From the NCBI RefSeq assembly GCF_004010195.1, contig NC_057717.1, positions 105,231,927 through 105,271,681 of the forward strand: a DNA stretch of 39,755 nucleotides. The letters run 5' to 3'. Numbering within the stretch: position 1 is the first letter of the stretch; every line of letters starts with the position of its first letter. Both the position numbers and the translations under genes were made by a program. Source of the stretch: Chiloscyllium plagiosum. Its lineage: Eukaryota. The notes under the pieces were generated by a model. That model saw only the letters and a list, made by a program, of their open reading frames with translations, ran no database searches and was not told where the DNA came from. Positions 6,141 to 35,300 of this stretch are shown here, piece by piece.

Positions 6141-6176
6141 AATCGACGTTTCGGGCATAAGCCCTTCTTCAGGAAT
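6141..6176 (-). ncRNA. Minimal hammerhead ribozyme motif in PLE terminus
   Basis: Minus strand auuc-CUGAAGA-a-GGGC-uuau-GCCC-GAAAC-GUC-gauu: intact core, perfect stem II, GUC cleavage triplet. Confidence 0.8.
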
Positions 6177-6312
6177 GAGGAAAGTGTGTCCAGCAGGCTA
6201 AGATAAAAGGTAGGGAGGAGGGGCTTGGGGAAGGAGCATTGGAAATGCGATAGGTGGAAGGAGGTAAAGGTGAGGGTGATAGGCCGGAGTGGGGTGGGGG
6301 CGGAGAGGTCAG

Positions 6313-6403
6313 NNNNNNNNNNNNNNNNNNNNNNNNNNNNNNNNNNNNNNNNNNNNNNNNNNNNNNNNNNNNNNNNNNNNNNNNNNNNNNNNNNNNNNNN
6401 NNN
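6313..6403. other. Assembly gap (91 N)
   Basis: Run of n within the inner PLE. Confidence 0.99.
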
Positions 6404-8029
6404 ACTGGGTGGTTGGGTTGGTTGGTCCGGGTGTCCCAGAGGTGTTCTCTGAAGCGTTCCGCAAGTAGGCGGCCTGTCTCCCCAATATAGAGGAGGCCAC
6501 ATCGGGTGCAGCGGATGCAGTAAATGATGTGTGTGGAGGTGCAGGTGAATTTGTGGCGGATTTGGAAGGATCCCTTGGGGCCTTGGAGGGAAGTAAGGGG
6601 GGAGGTGTGGGCGCAAGTTTTGCACTTCTTGCGGTTGCAGGGGAAGGTGCCAGGAGTGGAGATTGGGTTGGTGGGGAATGTAGACCTGACGAGGGAGTCA
6701 CGGAGGGAGTGGTCTTTTCGGAACGCTGATAGGGGAGGGGAGGGAAATATATCCCTGGTGATGGGTTCCGTTTGGAGGTGGCGGAAATGACGATGGATGA
6801 TACGATGTATATGGAGGTTGATGGGGTGGTAGGTGAGGACCAGTGGGGTTCTGTCCTGGTGGCGATTGGAGGGGCGGGGCTCAAGGACGGAGGAGCGGGA
6901 AGTGGAGGAGATGTGGTGGAGGGCATCGTCGATCACATCTGGAGGGAAATTGCGGTCTTTGAGGAAGGAGGCCATCTGGGTTGTACGGTATTGGAACTGG
7001 TCCTCCTGGGAGCAGATGCGGCAGAGATGAAGGAATTGGGAATATGGGATGGCGTTTTTACAGGGGGCAGGGTGGGAGGAGGTGTAGTTTAGGTAGCTGT
7101 GGGAGTCGGACGGTTTATAGTAAATGTTCGTGTTGATTCGGTCGCCCGATATAGAAATGGAAAGGTCTAGGAAGGGAAGGGAGGAGTCTGAGACGGTCCA
7201 GGTAAATTTGAGGTCGGGGTGGAAGGTGTTGGTAAAGTGGATGAATTATTCAACCTCCTCGTGGGAGCATGAGGCAGCGCTGATACAGTCATTGATGTAG
7301 CGGAGGAAAAGGTGGGAGGTGGTGCCAGTGTAGCTGCGGAAGATGGACTGTTCCACATATCCTACAAAGAGGCAGGCATAGCTAGGGCCCATGCGGGCGC
7401 TCATGGCTACTCCTTTGGTTTGGAGGAAGTGGGAGGATTGGAAAGAGAAGTTGTTCAGGGTGAGGACCAGTTCAGTCAGTCGAAGGAGGGTGTCAGTGGA
7501 AGGGTACTGGTTGGTACGGCGGGAAAGGAAGAAGTGGAGGGCTTTGAGTCCTTCGTAATGGGGGATGGAGGTGTACAGGGACTGGATGTCCATGGTGAAG
7601 ATAAGGCGTTGGGGACCAGGGAAGCGAAAATCATGGAGGAGGTGGAGGGCATGGGTGGTGTCCTGAATGTAGATGGGGAGTTCTTGGGCTAAGGGAGACA
7701 GGACCGTGTCGAGGTATGCAGAGATGAGAGAAGGTGAGTCACGGTTCCAGAAGCAAAGGTAGCAATAAAGAGATGATAATGACAGTGCATAGAGAGATTA
7801 TAGGGAGATTAGGAGCTGTGAATAACAAGGATGTACATCAAAGCAACCTTTACACAAAGCCTTGTTTTAAAAAAACTCCACTGAGTTGTCAATCATTAAA
7901 GAAATCATTTCAAGTATCTCCACAAAACCCAAAGTAAATTCATTCTGCTCAACCCTTTAAAACTTAAGTCCTCCAAGCAGCATTTAGTATAAAGTATCTT
8001 AGTAATAACATTGCTAAGCCATCGATTTC

Positions 8030-15424: not shown

Positions 15425-18400
15425 TGTTGATGAGGCAGTAAGAGGGGGAGATGTGGCCTTGTTAGTCAAGGATAGTATAACGGTGGCTGAGAGAACTTTT
15501 GAGGACTCACCTACTGAGGTGGTGTGGGCTGTGGTTAGAAACAGAAGAGGAGAGGTCACATTGCTTGGAGTTTTTTATAGGCCTCTGCAGAGTTCCAGGG
15601 AAGTGGAAGAGAGGATTGGCAAAATTATTCTGGGTAGGAGTGAAAGAAACAGGGTGGCCATTATGGGGGACTTTAATTTCTCTAACATTGACTGGAAATG
15701 CTATAAATCTAGTACGTCGGATGGATCAGTTTCTGTCCAATGTGTACAGGAGGGTTTCCTGACACAGTACGTCAAAGAGCCGACAAGAGGAGAGGCCACA
15801 CTGGATCTGGTGCTTGGTAATGAACCAGGCCTGTTGTTTGATTTAGTTGTAGATTAGCTCTTTGGAGAGAGTAACCATAATTCAGGTACGTTTAGTTTAG
15901 TGATGGAAAGGGATAGGTACATGCCACAGGGCAAGAATTATCGATGGGGCAAGGGCAATTATAATGTGATTCGGCAAGAATTAGGATGCATAGAATGAGG
16001 TAGCAAAATGCAGGGGATGCAGACAATGGAAATATGGAGCTGGTTTAAGGAACAGATATTGCGTGTCCTTGATAGGTATGTCCCTGTCAGGCAGGGAGGA
16101 AGTGATAAGGTAAGGGAACCATGGTTTACGACAGAAATTGCATCTCTTGTTAAGCAGAAGAAGGAGGCTTATGTGCTGATGAGGCAAGATGGTTCAGATG
16201 AGATGATGGAGAGTTACAGGTCAGCTAGGAAGGATTTAAAGAGAGAGTTAAGAAGAGCAAAGAGAGGACACGAGCAGTCTTTAGCAAATAGAATAAAGGA
16301 GAACCTTAAAGCTTTCTATAGATATGTGAGGGATAAAAGGATGACTAGGGTAGGAATAGGGCCAGTCAAAGACAGAAGTGGGAAGTTGAGTGTGGACCCT
16401 GTGGAGATAGGAGAGGTACTAAATGAACATTGCTCATTGGTTTTCACTCAGGAAAGGGAGAATACTATAGAGGAAAAGAATGAGGTACGAGATATTAGAC
16501 TAGAGAGGATCGAGGTTAGTTAAGAACAGGTGTTATCAATTCTAGAAAGAGTGAAAGTAGACAAGTCCCTGGGCCAGATGGGATTTATCTGAGGATTCTC
16601 TGGGAAGCTAGGGAGGAGATAGCAGAGCCTTTGGCTTTGATATTTGAGTCATCATTGTCTATAGGCTTAGTGCCAGAGGACTGGTGGGTTGCAAATGTTG
16701 TGCCCTTTTTCAAGAAGGGCAGTAGAGATGACCCAGGTAATTATAGACCAGTGAGCCTTACGTCTGTTGTAGGAAAGGTTTTGGAAAGGATTATAAGAGA
16801 TAAGATTTATAATCATCTAGCAAGCAACAATTTGATTTCAGATAGTCAACATGGTTTCATCAAGGGCAGGTCGCACCTCACCAATCTCATTGAGTTTTTT
16901 TGAGAAGGTGACCAACCATGTAGATGAGGATAGGGCAGTTGACATGGTATACATGGACTTCAGTAAAGCCTTTGATAATGTTCCACATGGTAGGCTGTTG
17001 GAGAAAATACAGTGGCATGGAATTTAGTAGTTTAGTAGATTGGCTTTCTGAAAGAAGGCAGAAAGTGGTGGTTGATGGAAAATATTCAGTCTGGAGTCCG
17101 GTTACTAGTGGTGTGCCACAAGGATCTGTTTTGGGACCACTGCTGTTTGTCATTTTTATAAATGACTTAGACACAGGCATAGGTGAATGGATTAGTAAAT
17201 TTGCAGACGACACTAGAGTTGGTGGAGTAGTGGACAGTTTGGAAGAATGTTACAGGTTGCAGGGGGACTGGGATAAACTGCAGAGTTGGGCTGAGAGGTG
17301 GCAAATGGAGTTCAATGCAGCTAAATGTGAGGTGATGCACTTTGGGAAGAATAACAGGAAGGCAGAGTACTGGGTCAATGGAAAGATTCTTGATAGTGTG
17401 AATGTGCAGAGGGATCTTGGAGTCCATGTACATAGATCCCTGAAAGTTGCCACCCAGGTTGATAGTGCTATTAAGAAGGCATACGGTGTGTTAGGTTTCA
17501 TTTGTAAAGGGATTGAGTACTGGAGCCGCAATATCATGAAAGCAAGCATGCAGGTCAGGTACAGCAGGCAGTGAAGAAAGCTAATAGCATGCTGGCCTTC
17601 ATAACAAGAGGAATTGCATATAGAAGCAAAGAGGTTCTTCTGCAGCTGTACAGGACCCTGGTGAGACCACACCTGGAATATTTTGTGAAGTTTTGGTCTC
17701 CAAATTTGAGGAAAGACATTCTGGCCATTGAGGGAGTGCAGCGTAGGTTCACGAGGTCAATTCCCGGAATGGTGGGACTTTCTTACGTTGAAAGATTGGA
17801 GCGACTGGGCTTGTAGACCCTTGAGTTTAGAAGGCTGAGAGGGGATCTGATTGAGACGTATAAGATTATTAAAGGATTGGACACTCTGGAGGCAGGAAGC
17901 ATGTTTCCACTGATGGGTGAGTCCCGAACCAGAGGACACAGTTTAAAAATAAGGAGTAGGCCATTTAGAACAGAGTTGAGGAGAAACTTCTTCACCCAGA
18001 GAGTGGTGGGTGTGTGGAATGCTCTGCCCAGAAGGCTGTGGAGGCCACGTCTCTGGATACTTTCAAGAAAGAGTTGGATAGAGCTCTTAAGGATAGTGGA
18101 ATCAAGAGTTATGGGGATAAGGCAGGAACAGGAACTGATTGAGGATGATCAGCCATGATCATAATGAATGGTGGTGTTGGCTCGAAGTACAGAATGGCCT
18201 ACTCCTGCACCTATTGTCTATCATGCTGCAACTATACAAAACGCTAGTGCGGCCACAATTGGAATATTGTGTACAGTTCTGGTCACCCCATTTCAGGTAG
18301 GATGTGGAAGCATTGGAAAAGGTGCAGAGGAGATTTACCAGGATGTTGCCTGGACTGGAGGGAATGTCTTATGAGGAAAGGCTGAGAGACTTGGGTCTGT

Positions 18401-25042: not shown

Positions 25043-25306
25043 TTTCCATCCCTTGTGAGTAGGGAGAGAAGAAAAAGAGAATACCTAGGAGTGCGGTGGC
25101 TGACTTGGACCTTGCAATCCAAACACTGCACCATGCACTTGGTGTCTCAGCTTCCACTTTGGGAATCCCTGGTCTAGGCTGACATATGGTAAGTGTCCAC
25201 TTAGGTAAAGTACTTGAGAGCAGCCAGTGCTTGTGGGAATATGAGAACAAATTAAGAATTAGAATTAAGTTTTCTGCCAATATGTGAAGTAGAAGCCACT
25301 ACTTAC

Positions 25307-25651
25307 TCCCATTCCTTTCTCTTTGCCTGAGGGGTACTGTGCATTTTATGAGCTTCGTGTGCTTTGATGACATCTCTGTGATCTACCAGGCCTCCTCGCC
25401 TTCTATAAGGTGCAGCCAGCCCACTCTCCGTCATCTGGTAATACTGAGCTTCATGTAACGCACTGGAATTGCAATGGTTAATGGAATCTATGCCCACTTC
25501 ACCTTTCACTTCATAGAGCTCTTCATAATAACTAGGAGGGGATGATGAGCTGAAGTCCAGAACATGTGTTTGAAGATGTTCAAAAGGGTCCGTCCATGAA
25601 GTTGTGTTTGCATTCATCAATCTGTTTGCCCAGAGCGAGGTAGCTGAACAA
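25307..25651 (-). CDS. Host coding exon; probable upstream N-terminal extension exon of a Cav2 voltage-gated calcium channel alpha-1 subunit (CACNA1E/B/A, paralog undetermined)
   Basis: Non-repetitive and stop-free for 345 nt; acceptor ttttattttgcag| and donor GGGA|gtaagt; ends RRRGGLVDHRDVIKAHEAHKMHSTPQAKRKEW(E), which I recall preceding MARFG in long Cav2 isoform models. The phase-2 end GA fits a join to G-ATG. Confidence 0.72.
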
Positions 25652-25964
25652 CTGCAAAATAAAACACCAAGAGTAAAAAGAACTTCAACTCCTCCAAATC
25701 ACAAGGTATCAAAATCAATTGTGCATGCCCTATCACACAGTCAAGCAACACAACACACTGCTCAGCAATTCATCTGTCTTTCACACTATGATTACAAACA
25801 AAATAGACTTAATGGTACAATAAGTTACACACTAGCCTCTTACCTCAGCTCAATTTGATTAACTTAAAGTCTACAACATCTGTTGCCGATTAGGATCTAA
25901 CACTACTCCTACCTAACTTCTGGATGGAATAAACCAACAACATAAAACTGGTATTAAAAAGGTA

Positions 25965-26850
25965 GAAACATATGAATCAGGAATAGAAGTAAACCATTTG
26001 GTCCTTTAAGAAGATCATATGTTCTGAATATCACATGCACATCTACCCTTCAATTCCTTTTCCTTCAAAAATCCACTGCTGCTTTAAAAATAGTCAATGA
26101 CACCACCTTCGGCGACAAAGTCTCATAACTGTCTGAGAAAGTTTCTCCTCATCTCTGTGCTACAAGTACGACACCTAATTTTTAAATAGTGTCCCCTGGA
26201 CCAGATCTCTCCCACAATAGAAAACATCACTGTCAGTTTGTCAAAACATTCACTTCAATCAAGTCATCCATTGCTCTTATAAACTCCAATGGAAACAAGC
26301 CAATCTGTCCAACCTGTCCTCATAAGAGAATCCACTCATGCCAGGCATCAAACTAGTAAACCTCTTCTGAACCACCAAACATTTACATTGTTTCTCATAT
26401 AAGGAGACCAAAATGGCATGCCATTGTCAAGATGTGGTCTCACCAATGGCCTGTATAACAGAAGCATCACGTCCTTACTTTTCTGTTCATTTTCTCTCAT
26501 AATAAAAGATTGCATTTCATTAATTTTTTAATCATTTGTTTTATCTGCATATTAATTTATTGTCACTTGTGTACTAGCACAAACCTAGATTGCCCCTGCA
26601 GCTCACAATTCTGCAGTCATTACTGTTTAAAATGATACTCTGGGCTTTTTATTCTTCCTACCAAAGTCAACAACTTCACATTTTCCCACATTATTCTCCA
26701 TATGATGGATTTTTGCCCCCTCATATAAATCATGTATATCTGTCTGCATCCTTGTTATGTTATTATTACATCATACTTTCCTACCTATGTTTGTGTTATC
26801 TGCAAATTTAGCTACGATACCTACGGTCCCCTTATCTAAGTCATTGTAAA
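25965..26850 (-). mobile_element. CR1 3' portion, degenerate
   Basis: Minus strand NDLDK..IVAKFADNT...LLYRPLVRPHL...WSPYMR...SYEDRLDRL; the 3' UTR ends near 25965. Confidence 0.8.
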
Positions 26851-27206: not shown

Positions 27207-27439
27207 TGTCATGATTTTTAATGAGGTTAGCCAAGTGGACCTCAGAATATGAGTTTCCTGATTGGACCAGATTAACAGCCCCAATCAGGGAGCCCTGCCA
27301 GTTAGATATAAATAGGAGTGTCAGAGGTTCTGTTCATTCAGAGCTGGCTGTGAGGAAGCTAGACCAGTTTCAAGTATTATACACATATAAATACAGAGTA
27401 GCTTAGTGACAGCATACCAATCTCTGTGGAATTATTTCA
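27207..27439 (+). mobile_element. Solo LTR (233 bp)
   Basis: TGTCA...TTTCA ends; 5-bp TSD gcaga/acaga (one mismatch); inverted CCAAT pair cctgattgg/ccaatcagg, TATA tataaatagg; interrupts CR1 coding sequence cleanly. Confidence 0.7.
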
Positions 27440-32364: not shown

Positions 32365-35300
32365 TCACCGTACCAGCCAGAACCACTCCCACAGCCAGAC
32401 AAAAGCCCTGGACAATATGGCCAAAATATCTGTGTCGATATAGTTCAAAAAGGGCTGCCATATTTTACAGAATAATTCAATTTTTTGGTGCACCATATTT
32501 GTGAGGAAGTCAAGGGGGATATATTCCATGATTAGCCTGTTCGAAAGTCCTGGAGGGCCTTCAGCTGCCCAATTCATTAAAATATTTTTCCTTGCACAAA
32601 AGGAGAGGATGGAAAATAGTTTCCTCCCGTGCATGTCCAGGGAGGGAAAATCTGAAAAGCCCAAGAGTAGAGACACTGGATCCAATCTAATCTCCGTACC
32701 CAAGATCTCTGTCAAGGCATTCACTACTCTGTCCCAATACCTGCAGATCTTATGGTATGTCCATAGGCAATGCCTGAGAGTGCCAACTTCGATTTTGCAT
32801 TTAGGACACATTGGGGATGCTCCTACCTTAAATTTTGTGAGTCGTTCAGGTGCTATATGGGCCCTGTGGAGTATCTTTAATTGAATAGCTTGAGTTCTAT
32901 TACAAATAGAGACCTTTCTGGCATTTTCCCAGATGTCCTCCCACATTTCTGAAGAGATTTCTAACCCCAATTCTTGGTTCCATATTTTAAATAATTGTTC
33001 CAGGTCTTTCGATACCTCATTATGTAATGAGTGATAAAGAGTACTGACCGAGAGCGGCCCCATCAGCCAGAGCATTCTTCTTTCCATATCCGATTTGTAG
33101 GGATTGCCTATCAGTGTGGTCTTCGTCTGGATATAATCTCTTATTTGGAAATACCGAAAAAGGTCCCTGTTCGGCAGTTCAAACTTTTGGTGCAACTGCT
33201 CAAAAGACATCATAACCTCCCCATCAAACAGGTTCCCCCAAGTAAGAGATACTTTGAACTTCCAAGTTTTAATTGTAGCGTCTGTCAGCCCTGGCTGAAA
33301 TCCCGACGCTCCCACTATAGGAGTATAAGGGGAGGTTTTTTTGCAGGTTACCTTAATCTTGTCGCATTATCCTCCAGGCTTTAATTGTATTTAATACAAT
33401 AGGGTTTTTGCAATAGTTCATAATAGCTCTCATCTTATCCATAAATAAAAGATTGATGAGGGGACACTTTGCTTGGGAGGTCTCAATATCTAACCAAATT
33501 GATTGTGGGTCACAAGAGACCCATTCAGCTACATAAGATAATAAAGAGCTCAACTGATATCTCCTAAAGTCTGGGAAGTCCAGTCCTCCCCTTGCCTGTG
33601 GAAGCTGCAGCTTTTCTAATTTGATAAGGGGCCGTCTATCATTCCAGATAAAAGAACCAAGCCAGCCGTGGAGCTTACGCAACACCAATCTCGGCAACAT
33701 TAGAGGGAGCATTTTCATAGGATATAGAAGATGAGGTAGAATATTCATTTTAACTAGGGCTACTCTGCCCAACCAGGATATTGGGAGATCTCCCCAGCGT
33801 TGAAGATCCTGCCTTATTTTCTCTAATAGGTGCACAAAATTGGCTTTGTACAGCTGACCAAATACTAGGGTGATGAAAATACCCAAGTATAGAAAACCTT
33901 CCAGTGACCACTGAAAGGGAAAGCAAGATCCGTCCGGTAAGTTGGATATTCTGGCGAGACCACCCACCGACATGGCCTCCGATTTCATAAAATTGATTTT
34001 ATAGCCTGAGAACATGCTAAATAGATTGACCACTTGAATTAGGCGGATCAAAGGATCTCTTAAGAAAAGGAGGACATAATCTGTATAGAGAGTAATTTTA
34101 TGTTTACCCGAACCAACCCTCGGACCCGCTATGTTACGGTCAGTTCGTATAGCTTCCGCTAGTGGTTCGATTACGAGCGTGAGTAATACAGGCGAGAGAG
34201 GACATCCCTGATGACAGCCTTTCCCAACACTGAAGCTTTCCGAACCTAAACCATTGGTGATCACAGCTGCTTTGGGGTCATTATATAATACTGAGACCCA
34301 TTTAGAAAATAACTCTCCGACACCAAACCTTTCCAGTGTATAAAAAAGATATGACCATTCTACTCGATCAAAAGCCTTCCCTACGTCCAAGGACACAACT
34401 AATCCCGGTATTCTTCACTGTTGACAGGCTTGTATCATATTTAAGATCCTTCTAATATTATTAGTCGATTTGCGGCCCTTAATAAACCCCGTCTGGTCTT
34501 CTTTTATGATGTATGGTAAGACCCTCTCCAATCTTAATGCTATCATTTTAGAAAGAATTTTAAAATCCACATTTAGCAAGGATATTGGTCTATATGATGA
34601 GCAATATTCTGGGGCTTTTCCTTTTTTAAGAATGAGATATTTGCTTCTCTCAATGAAGGCGGGAGGCAGCCCTGACTATGTGAGTAATTATGCATATTTA
34701 TAAGTGGCCCAGCCAGTTCCCCTATAAATTCTATATAAAACTCAACCTGGAATCCGTCTGGTCGAGGGACTTTGCCATTCTGAAGCTGACTAATAGCATC
34801 AAGAACTTCCTGGGTTATCAGGGGGGCATTCAAGATCGGCACCTGCTCCGAGGTTAAGCCCGGAAAGGGCAAGTTTTTAAAGAAGAACTCCATCTTCTCA
34901 GTTCTATCCTCACAGTCCTGTCAGCTGCCTTCAAGCGAGCCTCGAGCAGGCGCTGTTGATCTCCCTTTTGTCTTTTCTGGGTCACAGAATATGAGATGAC
35001 CAAACCTCGCGCATAAGCCTTAATGGTCTCCCACATCGTCGACAGGTTACTGGCTGTACCTGAATTAATTTCCAAAAAGGTTTTGAATTCCTGAGAAAAA
35101 TTTTTATAAGTTTGCTATCCTTCAATAAGAAAGAATCCATACATCAATGTCAGCGGCCTAGCCCATCGTCCCTAGTCTTGACTTCCATATATACTGCAGC
35201 ATGATCAGAAATAGCTATATTACCTATTTTGCAAGACAATATGGAATTCAAAAGGGTCGAGGGAGATAAAAACATATCAATTCTGGTATGACACTTACGT

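What the first reader, a model, noticed from the sequence alone, without database searches (positions are those of the whole stretch)
25307..25651. Isolated intact exon encoding a putative, poorly characterised N-terminal extension of a Cav2 calcium channel
Seen: this is the only clean non-transposon coding block in 40 kb, 345 nt (a multiple of 3), with a strong acceptor and a GTAAGT donor, phase 2 at both ends. It encodes an acidic Ser/Tyr-rich segment, including PPSY (a PPxY WW-domain ligand consensus), followed by a basic helix-like motif GLVDHRDVIKAHEAHKMHSTPQAKRKEWE. Recalled, not verified: a near-identical motif precedes the canonical MARFG start in predicted long isoforms of vertebrate CACNA1E/B/A. 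Inference: an ancient optional N-terminal module of Cav2 channels, conserved from sharks to mammals, that could affect trafficking or G-protein modulation. If the intron is retained, the TAA in GTAAGT ends the frame exactly at EWE, so a standalone microprotein is also possible.
Basis: partly seen in the sequence, partly recalled or inferred. Interest (0 to 1): 0.75.

Follow-up and report, generated by a model that had tools for sequence, protein, structure and literature searches.

The report
Upstream coding exon of shark Cav2.1
This is a real, spliced and strongly conserved upstream coding exon that puts about 119 extra amino acids in front of the usual start of a P/Q-type (Cav2.1-like) calcium channel; the add-on appears in automatic gene models from sharks to mammals, but I found no study of it.

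Summary
Window 25307-25651 (minus strand) is a single-copy 345-nt exon with a pyrimidine-rich CAG acceptor and a GTAAGT donor.

- **Splicing:** Transcript-like contigs from two related organisms break exactly at both exon ends, while a DNA run of the window's own species reads straight through.
- **Partner exon:** 92.7 kb downstream on the same strand lies a Cav2 exon starting MARFG. Its splice acceptor sits 1 nt before the ATG, so the frame runs from ...KRKEW-E into MARFG.
- **Other species:** Database models show the same join. It occurs in CACNA1A of an electric ray, turtles, lizards and a jaguar, and in CACNA1E of birds, lizards, a frog and rat.
- **Paralogue:** A second copy of the exon heads the CACNA1E-like gene on another chromosome. 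Between the two copies synonymous sites are saturated (pS 0.79) and protein change is low (pN 0.10).
- **Shape:** The module is mostly disordered and ends in one conserved basic, His-bearing helix.
- **Corrections:** The in-frame TAA follows automatically from a phase-2 consensus donor. PPSY is not universally conserved. No CACNA1B copy was seen.
- **Status:** It is present in databases. Its function is unstudied in seven literature searches.

The parts
25307..25651 (-). 345-nt internal coding exon (1 base + 114 codons + 2 bases) of the long N-terminal isoform of the Cav2.1-like (CACNA1A-type) gene
   Evidence: Sequence and translation. Single copy in the genome. Contigs of X1, X2 and X3 break at 25307 and 25653/25654, while the DNA run X6 is contiguous. 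79% identical to a catshark protein and 63% to an electric-ray protein that continues into MARFG.
25652..25680 (-). Splice acceptor: pyrimidine-rich tract ending in CAG
   Evidence: Read directly. Three contigs stop fitting at 25653/25654 and then run on unlike the genome.
25301..25306 (-). Splice donor GTAAGT (phase 2). Read through, it gives GAG TAA.
   Evidence: Read directly. The X2 and X3 contigs start fitting exactly at 25307 after 30 and 38 unmatched letters.
25309..25404 (-). Conserved C-terminal motif of the extension (residues R83-W114 of P0001). Invariant in 34 aligned sequences: R84 R85 G86 G87 D93 A97 H98 H101 K102 T106 P107 A109 K112 W114.
   Evidence: Alignment A1. Against the paralogous copy on C11, pS is 0.79 and pN is 0.10 over 32 codons.
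25339..25380 (-). The only confidently predicted secondary structure: a helix at H91-H104
   Evidence: AlphaFold2 on alignment A1 gave mean pLDDT 59.9, block 91-100 pLDDT 89, and a helix at 91-104.
25528..25539 (-). PPSY (PPxY-type motif) inside a Tyr-rich island (SYYEELYE)
   Evidence: Read directly. It is kept in catshark, turtle and lizard proteins, altered in the ray (PPNY), changed to NPTY, DPTY or other forms in some teleost proteins, and lost in the jaguar model.

Best explanation
The block is a genuine alternative 5' coding exon of the Cav2.1-like (CACNA1A-type) calcium-channel gene of a cartilaginous fish.

Shown:
- It is spliced at both ends.
- It lies on the same strand, 92.7 kb upstream of the channel's exon that starts MARFG.
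- That exon carries a splice acceptor 1 nt before its ATG, so the phase-2 donor (GA|) completes a Glu codon and the frame runs straight into Met-Ala-Arg-Phe-Gly.
- The same join is written in database proteins of CACNA1A and CACNA1E from ray to mammals.
- The peptide is under strong purifying selection.

Inferred:
- Transcription starts at a distal promoter about 31.5 kb further upstream. A mini-exon there (ATG GAT TCC AG|GTGAGC) would supply Met-Asp-Ser and two bases of a Ser codon, giving a 119-residue cytoplasmic extension.
- The extension is mostly disordered. It carries a Tyr-rich island (PPSY / YxxL-like) and ends in a short basic, His-bearing helix with one invariant face (D93, A97, H98, H101, K102), directly abutting the channel's N-terminus.
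- From recalled knowledge, that N-terminus takes part in G-beta-gamma inhibition and in contacts with the I-II linker.

The most likely role is therefore a promoter-specific docking or regulatory module that changes surface delivery, turnover or N-terminus-dependent modulation of the channel, not its pore. The exon identity is well supported. The functional step is a guess.
For: - Exon anatomy.
- A MARFG exon at C8:105164295-105164561 on the minus strand, 91% identical to the ray protein's residues 117-205, with further Cav2 exons of the same gene down to C8:104780928.
- The acceptor ...tttatag|A ATG GCA.
- That exon scores best against P/Q-type alpha-1A: 132 bits, versus 116 for N-type and 114 for R-type.
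- The ray protein P0002 reads ...KRKEWE then MARFGDEV.
- Five P/Q-type models (two turtles, gecko, anole, jaguar) and 22 of 24 R-type models have KEWE directly followed by MARFG.
- 55 of 59 HMMER hits carry the motif.
- Contigs from three runs, two organisms and three studies break exactly at the exon ends, while DNA of the window's species does not. X1, which carries the same organism label as X3, fits through the donor into the intron, so X3's break at 25307 is not divergence.
- The paralogous copies C8 and C11 give pS 0.79 and pN 0.10. Ungapped identity is 0.76 in the exon and 0.31 in the adjacent intron.
- 14 columns are invariant across 34 sequences.
- A helix is predicted at 91-104.
- The candidate first mini-exon is the only one of 9 short ATG...GTRAG candidates in about 114 kb that begins Met-Asp. 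It reproduces the length and start of the catshark and ray models, which begin MDSSSS... and MDFSSS....
Against: - The letters beyond the splice breaks were not shown, so the join to the MARFG exon in this lineage rests on position, frame and the ray gene model, not on a read.
- The runs are labelled 'RNA?' as a guess only. A processed retrocopy in DNA would look the same.
- No RNA of the window's own species was examined.
- X1's contig continues 207 nt into the downstream intron, so some molecules are unspliced there.
- Most database joins are automatic predictions.
- No peptide or ribosome evidence was seen.
- The first mini-exon is inferred from an 11-nt match and could not be checked with reads. 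In addition, 8.7 kb of the stretch scanned (this window plus 100 kb upstream) reads N.
- Nothing tested here speaks to function.
- PPxY is not conserved in all lineages.
Confidence: 0.85

Rival explanations
1. The exon also, or mainly, makes a stand-alone protein of about 119 residues ending ...KEWE. This would come from transcripts that keep the downstream intron or end inside it, with the stop supplied by GAG TAA.
For: X1's contig is spliced at the acceptor but runs 207 nt into the downstream intron. The catshark gene model P0003 is 119 aa and ends at EWE. Many database ORFs end at EWE.
Against: - Any phase-2 donor with consensus GTRAGT gives an immediate TAA or TGA. The paralogue does the same with TGA. 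ORF callers that ignore splicing would therefore end there, so these endings carry no information.
- No AATAAA or ATTAAA occurs in the 207 nt of intron covered (read).
- A 93-kb intron is expected to leave unspliced nascent RNA.
- An acceptor 1 nt before the ATG, seen on the C8 exon and on the C30 paralogue, is explained by the join, not by a microprotein.
Confidence: 0.08
2. The exon is transcribed and spliced but serves as 5' leader only. Translation of the channel would still begin at the MARFG methionine, and the open frame would be incidental or act as an upstream ORF.
For: No translation evidence was obtained here. All solved Cav2 structures and the functional work I recall start at MARFG. 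A profile of the module finds no PDB chain.
Against: The protein sequence is conserved, not just openness of the frame: 14 columns are invariant in 34 sequences, pN is 0.10 against a saturated pS of 0.79 between paralogues, and the frame is continuous into MARFG in all joined models.
Confidence: 0.05
3. The exon belongs to a separate, uncharacterised gene that merely lies upstream of the channel gene.
For: Several records call it 'uncharacterized protein' or 'hypothetical protein', namely Narcine, Solea, Scyliorhinus and Chelonia.
Against: The 'uncharacterised' models P0002 and P0057 themselves contain the channel's MARFG exon. P0057, P0103 and P0106 then run on into the AT-AC intron (...EWPYP...), which points to gene models split at a U12-type intron. 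The same pairing of module and Cav2 gene recurs on a second chromosome.
Confidence: 0.02

Closest known systems
Predicted long isoforms of CACNA1A (P/Q-type): Caretta caretta X14, Mauremys mutica, Heteronotia binoei X2, Anolis sagrei X3, Panthera onca X6 (P0098-P0102)
   Same: The extension ends ...RRGG.VDHRD.I.AHQAHK.H.TPQA.RKEWE directly before MARFGDE. Reptiles keep the SPPSYY island. It is the same gene type as the window's C8 gene.
   Different: The extensions are shorter (82-106 residues before MARFG). The middle part is poorly alignable, the jaguar has lost PPxY, and the N-terminal starts differ. All are automatic models, and I saw no experimental paper.
Predicted long isoforms of CACNA1E (R-type) in birds, lizards, a frog and rat (P0074-P0097), and the paralogous exon in this genome at C11:93630690-93631010
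   Same: The terminal motif, the phase-2 donor and the position before MARFG are the same. This indicates a module older than the split of the Cav2.1 and Cav2.3 genes.
   Different: It is a different paralogue. It has VSP.VIKRRRGGLIEQRD instead of APYRRRGGLVDHRD, no PPxY, and a longer, different N-terminal part (MLG...).
Alternative transcription start sites of Aplysia CaV2 (PMC10657410, passages read)
   Same: One Cav2 gene has several start sites, and the longer ones add upstream exons to the channel's N-terminus. Usage differs between cell types.
   Different: It is a mollusc, and no sequence comparison with the vertebrate module was made here, so homology is unknown.
Canonical Cav2 N-terminus as in the solved structures 8x90 (Cav2.1), 7mix (Cav2.2) and 7xlq (Cav2.3)
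   Same: The exon that the module is spliced onto matches these chains from their MARFG start.
   Different: None of the solved chains contains the module. The profile search found 0 hits at E up to 1.

Membership tests
N-terminal extension exon of vertebrate Cav2 genes (as in predicted long CACNA1A/CACNA1E isoforms) | Terminal motif RRGG-x5-D-x3-AH-x2-HK-x3-TPxA-x2-K-x-W-E | tested here: met
   All 14 invariant columns of the 34-sequence alignment are present in the window's peptide.
N-terminal extension exon of vertebrate Cav2 genes (as in predicted long CACNA1A/CACNA1E isoforms) | A phase-2 donor immediately after ...EW + GA, matched by an acceptor 1 nt before the ATG of the MARFG exon | tested here: met
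   The donor is GA|GTAAGT. The acceptor is tttatag|A ATG at C8:105164553. The paralogue donor is GA|GTGAGT. The C30 paralogue acceptor is ttccag|A ATG.
N-terminal extension exon of vertebrate Cav2 genes (as in predicted long CACNA1A/CACNA1E isoforms) | Lies upstream of a Cav2 gene, on the same strand | tested here: met
   Cav2 exons lie on the minus strand of C8 from 105164561 down to 104780928.
N-terminal extension exon of vertebrate Cav2 genes (as in predicted long CACNA1A/CACNA1E isoforms) | Used in RNA: spliced at both ends and joined to the MARFG exon | tested here: inconclusive
   Breaks occur at both exon ends in contigs of three runs from two related organisms. The partner letters were not displayed, the runs are only guessed to be RNA, and no RNA of the window's own species was examined.
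CACNA1A (P/Q-type) orthologue rather than CACNA1B or CACNA1E | Downstream exon and extension closest to named P/Q-type proteins | tested here: met
   The C8 MARFG exon scores 132 bits against alpha-1A, 116 against alpha-1B and 114 against alpha-1E. Relatives of the window's subtype are named P/Q-type in Arapaima and Clarias. The turtle relative P0005 (51% identical to the window's peptide) has P/Q-type models of turtles, lizards and jaguar as its best long matches. The margin on one exon is modest and no tree was built.
PPxY (PY) ligands of WW-domain proteins | A Pro-Pro-x-Tyr core that is conserved and accessible | tested here: inconclusive
   PPSY is present in a low-confidence (disordered) part of the model. 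It is kept in catshark, turtles and lizards, but is PPNY in the ray, NPTY, DPTY or absent in several teleost proteins, and lost in the jaguar model.
PPxY (PY) ligands of WW-domain proteins | Binding to a WW domain | not testable with these tools
   No binding test was run.

The most novel reading that the evidence does not exclude
Cav2.1 and Cav2.3 share an ancient regulatory N-terminal module that is older than the gene duplication separating them and is kept from sharks to mammals. It would be made from a distal promoter and would be missing from every channel construct so far expressed or solved. Its invariant basic, His-bearing helix would dock a partner, or the channel's own N-terminus / I-II linker unit, and so set trafficking, turnover or G-protein sensitivity in the cells that use the distal promoter. 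Variants in it would be overlooked in CACNA1A and CACNA1E disease testing.
Probability: 0.45. Interest if true: 0.7.

Novelty: new member of a known kind. Interest (0 to 1): 0.5.

Why it matters
Cav2.1 and Cav2.3 are among the most studied presynaptic and neuronal calcium channels. From recalled knowledge, they are disease genes for ataxia, migraine and epileptic encephalopathy.

As far as the solved structures show, and as far as I recall for functional work, studies begin at the MARFG methionine. A conserved alternative N-terminus of about 80-160 residues next to the region implicated in G-protein inhibition would be a new handle on cell-type-specific regulation.

It is directly testable with long versus short constructs. 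It would also add coding sequence to be considered when interpreting variants.

The shark exon itself adds the deep end of the phylogeny. It shows, within one genome, that two paralogous copies have kept the same 32-residue end while their synonymous sites saturated.

Tried and rejected
- **Pfam on the peptide and on long isoforms:** no family covers the module.
- **ESM Atlas:** the nearest clusters were phage and peptidase-prodomain proteins at 0.87-0.92 with few shared features. I treated them as chance.
- **Bacterial promoter/terminator scan:** irrelevant to a vertebrate gene and found nothing.
- **The look-up of sequencing runs:** no RNA holder was listed.
- **First searches for an upstream start exon:** these demanded too many Ser codons and found nothing. 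A looser scan gave the candidate. The 14 kb of the window upstream of the exon holds no such exon.
- **MARFG exon of the C11 (CACNA1E-like) gene:** not found in three protein searches. It may lie in a gap or a masked stretch.
- **Third copy of the module near the C30 Cav2 gene:** the protein searches found only C8 and C11. A strict 35-place pattern gave 8 hits, of which 6 were chance matches without the flanking motif.
- **C30 exon 1:** it could not be assigned to N-type on its own (114, 109 and 108 bits).
- **Alignment query against the own genome:** not accepted.
- **Second cluster look-up for names of a sequence subgroup:** could not be made. The gene assignment of the teleost subgroup ending ...AHQAHKLHNTPQA.RKQWE therefore stays open.
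- **Differences between relatives inside the exon:** of the differences displayed, 9 fall in the exon (26 further rows were not shown). Three are synonymous and six are not, and all lie in the variable N-terminal half. That is too few for a rate test.
- **Earlier findings of this scan:** none.
- **Literature:** seven searches turned up nothing on this extension (plus, which failed on syntax). Passages of PMC12465193 (rat Cacna1e long reads) never use the word N-terminal. PMC11317171 (translated 5' regions) does not mention CACNA1 in its main text, and I did not open its supplements. Subscription-only papers were not searchable.

Full report
**Observation.** On the minus strand, window 25651 down to 25307 is a 345-nt block in an open frame (25303-25698, 131 aa stop to stop). 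A pyrimidine-rich tract ending in CAG precedes it and GTAAGT follows it. It reads as 1 base + 114 codons + 2 bases, so both ends are phase 2. PPSY and the ...GGLVDHRDVIKAHEAHKMHSTPQAKRKEW end are there as described. ORF length is not special, since the window holds 28 ORFs of 130 aa or more. The stretch is single-copy in the 3.56-Gb genome, where the window is contig C8:105231927-105271681.

**What it is attached to.** The one near-full-length database match in the first search was a 269-aa 'uncharacterized protein' of the electric ray Narcine bancroftii, 63% identical over the whole exon. After ...KRKEWE it continues MARFGDEVPARYG... and then into a stretch (...RARTMALYNPIPVRQNC...) that matches Cav2 exon 1. 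Searching the window's own genome with that protein found three things:
- The matching MARFG exon at C8:105164295-105164561 on the minus strand, 91% identical.
- A second MARFG exon on C30.
- A second copy of the terminal motif on C11.

The C8 exon starts with ...tgtttatag|A ATG GCA. There is therefore a splice acceptor 1 nt before the ATG. The donor's GA plus this A makes GAA (Glu), and the frame runs into Met-Ala-Arg-Phe-Gly. The intron between them is 92,679 nt. More Cav2 exons follow on the same strand down to C8:104780928. The C8 MARFG exon scores best against P/Q-type alpha-1A in the PDB: 132 bits, against 116 for N-type and 114 for R-type.

**Relatives.** A full HMMER scan of 1.84 billion representatives gave 59 hits at E up to 0.001. 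Of these, 55 carry the terminal motif by a simple pattern, and three continue into MARFG. The three weakest or repetitive hits (P0004, P0053, P0060) are Ser-rich false positives. P0025 missed my pattern.

Named members include:
- a catshark hypothetical protein, 79% identical, 119 aa, ending at EWE;
- a green-turtle hypothetical protein;
- 'P/Q-type alpha-1A-like' proteins of Arapaima and Clarias;
- models from Solea, Gadus, Scleropages and a skink.

Searching longer proteins with the ray motif listed 24 proteins. Nearly all are 'R-type alpha-1E isoform X..' of birds and lizards, plus a frog and rat X14. In 22 of the 24, KEWE is followed directly by MARFG. Searching with the turtle protein listed 13 proteins. 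Five are P/Q-type alpha-1A models with the same join: Mauremys, Caretta X14, Heteronotia X2, Anolis sagrei X3 and Panthera onca X6. None of the 37 listed rows is named N-type. The search tool only covers proteins up to 2000 residues, so full-length models were outside its reach.

**RNA-type evidence.** No run is on record as RNA, so what follows rests on how contigs lie:
- X2 (organism B): a 550-nt contig fits 25307-25654 with its letters 31-378, leaving 30 and 172 letters that fit nothing in the 3-kb stretch.
- X3 (organism A): one contig fits from exactly 25307 after 38 unmatched letters. Another fits up to 25653 and has 81 more letters.
- X1 (organism A): a 664-nt contig fits 25100-25654, so it runs 207 nt into the downstream intron, and then has 124 unmatched letters beyond the acceptor.
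- X6 (same species label as the window, behaving as DNA): a contig is contiguous over 25172-25803.

Because X1 shows that organism A's intron is alignable, X3's break at 25307 is a junction and not divergence. This amounts to three runs, two related organisms and three studies. The unmatched letters were not displayed, so the partner exons were not seen. A retrocopy in DNA would look the same.

**Constraint.** The copy on C11 (...SPHIIKRRRGGIVEQRDIIKAHQAHKMQSTPQAKRKEWE, donor GA|GTGAGT) lies upstream of Cav2 exons on the same strand (C11:93776979 onward). It matches bird CACNA1E residues 45-136 at 61% identity. Over the last 32 codons, the C8 and C11 copies differ at 15.5 of 19.7 synonymous sites (pS 0.79, saturated) but at only 7.5 of 76.3 non-synonymous sites (pN 0.10). 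The 96 nt of intron after the donors are 31% identical ungapped, against 76% for the exon end. The module therefore predates the split of these two Cav2 genes and has been kept as protein.

**Anatomy of the module.** In 34 aligned sequences of all subgroups the invariant columns are R84 R85 G86 G87 D93 A97 H98 H101 K102 T106 P107 A109 K112 W114, numbered on the window's peptide. Everything upstream aligns poorly except a Tyr-rich island. AlphaFold2 with this alignment gave mean pLDDT 59.9 and a single confident element, a helix at 91-104. D93, A97, H98, H101 and K102 fall on one side of it. That placement is my inference from the i/i+3/i+4 spacing.

No Pfam family and no PDB chain contains the module. 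PPSY is kept in the catshark, turtles and lizards. It is PPNY in the ray, NPTY, DPTY or other forms in several teleost proteins, and absent in the jaguar model. A WW-ligand role can therefore hold at most for some lineages.

**The 5' end.** Residues before the exon's internal Met are conserved: SLWANR here, WLWADR in the catshark, SLWAER in the ray, and SPLYAD in bony fishes. This shows that coding starts further upstream. The catshark and ray models begin MDS.../MDF..., followed by a Ser where the window's exon has its split first codon.

I scanned the 14 kb of window upstream plus 100 kb fetched beyond it; the stretch scanned (window included) holds 8.7 kb of N. The scan gave 9 short ATG...GTRAG candidates. 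One begins Met-Asp: ATG GAT TCC AG|GTGAGC at C8:105289109-105289119, which is 31,531 nt upstream. It has a GC box, a CCAAT and a TATA-like element within 130 nt before it. It would give an extension of 119 residues, the length of the catshark model. Its last three bases equal the last three of the intron, which would explain why two of the three contigs fit to 25654 and not 25651. This is an inference and could not be tested with reads.

**The stop after EWE.** A phase-2 donor with consensus GTRAGT always reads xxG TRA, so an in-frame TAA or TGA follows automatically. This explains why so many database ORFs end at EWE. X1's intron-containing contig is compatible with nascent RNA of a 93-kb intron. 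No poly(A) signal lies in the 207 nt it covers. A stand-alone product is not excluded but has no specific support.

**Knownness.** The module is written into automatic gene models of many species. Seven full-text searches, including the motif strings themselves, found no paper on it (which failed, 40, 47, 66). Passages of a rat Cacna1e long-read catalogue never mention the N-terminus (PMC12465193). A survey of translated 5' regions does not mention CACNA1 in its main text (PMC11317171; supplements not opened). Aplysia CaV2 is reported to have four start sites, the longer ones adding upstream exons (PMC10657410, passages). That is the closest described principle.

**Mechanism.** Three things are shown: a spliced, constrained coding exon; in-frame geometry with the channel's MARFG exon; and the same join in CACNA1A and CACNA1E models across jawed vertebrates. 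Three things are inferred: a distal promoter and mini-exon; translation of the 119-residue extension; and a role as a cytoplasmic docking or regulatory module next to the N-terminal region. From recalled literature, that region is needed for G-beta-gamma inhibition and contacts the I-II linker. I put 0.85 on the exon identity and much less on any particular function.

**Limits.**
- No RNA of the window's own species was examined.
- The partner letters at the junctions were not seen.
- No protein-level evidence was obtained.
- No tree was built, and the orthology margin rests on one exon and on names.
- One planned name look-up could not be made.

Noticed in passing
L002 about 1490-1500 (C8, end of the MARFG exon) and L004 about 1490-1500 (C30): The MARFG exon of both Cav2 paralogues ends ...TGG CC|ATATCCTTT, the 5' splice-site consensus of U12-type AT-AC introns. 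Several database gene models read through it (...EWPYPF...), and some stop soon after. This probably explains why the extension plus this exon is filed as a separate 'uncharacterized protein' in some species.
   Followed up: partly
L005 1087-1602 (C11:93630690-93631010, + strand): A paralogous extension exon lies upstream of the CACNA1E-like gene. It has donor GA|GTGAGT and a possible start MLGFASGS... resembling the bird and frog CACNA1E models. The MARFG exon of that gene was not found in the assembly.
   Followed up: partly
L004 1400-1900 (C30:19228392-19228670, - strand): A third Cav2 gene also has an acceptor-like ttttccag 1 nt before its ATG, but no extension exon was detectable anywhere for it. 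Either that exon was lost, or it is too diverged, or only non-coding leader exons splice there.
   Followed up: partly
L024 7428-7600 (C8:105289109-105289281, - strand; outside the window): This is the candidate first exon and promoter of the long isoform. A GC box, a CCAAT and a TATA-like element precede ATG GAT TCC AG|GTGAGC. A weak out-of-frame ATG lies 8 nt before the proposed start.
   Followed up: partly
window 6169-7797 (-): Two adjacent ORFs give weak reverse-transcriptase and GIY-YIG hits, both below Pfam's cut-offs. This is the domain pair of Penelope-like retroelements. A 91-base run of N lies inside at 6313-6403.
   Followed up: no
window 16924-17574 (+) and 33353-34414 (-): Reverse-transcriptase fragments score above Pfam's cut-off (52 and 61.6 bits). 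They are retrotransposon remains in the intron.
   Followed up: no
window 26421-26824 and 27229-27300: Contig depth spikes very high in all four runs laid, up to 138,689 in the DNA run. These are high-copy repeats shared with the related organisms.
   Followed up: no
L002 1760-1900 (upstream of the C8 MARFG ATG): The 140 nt before the acceptor are AT-rich and hold several ATGs with early stops. This looks more like intron than a leader, so the MARFG exon in this shark may usually be reached by splicing from upstream exons.
   Followed up: no
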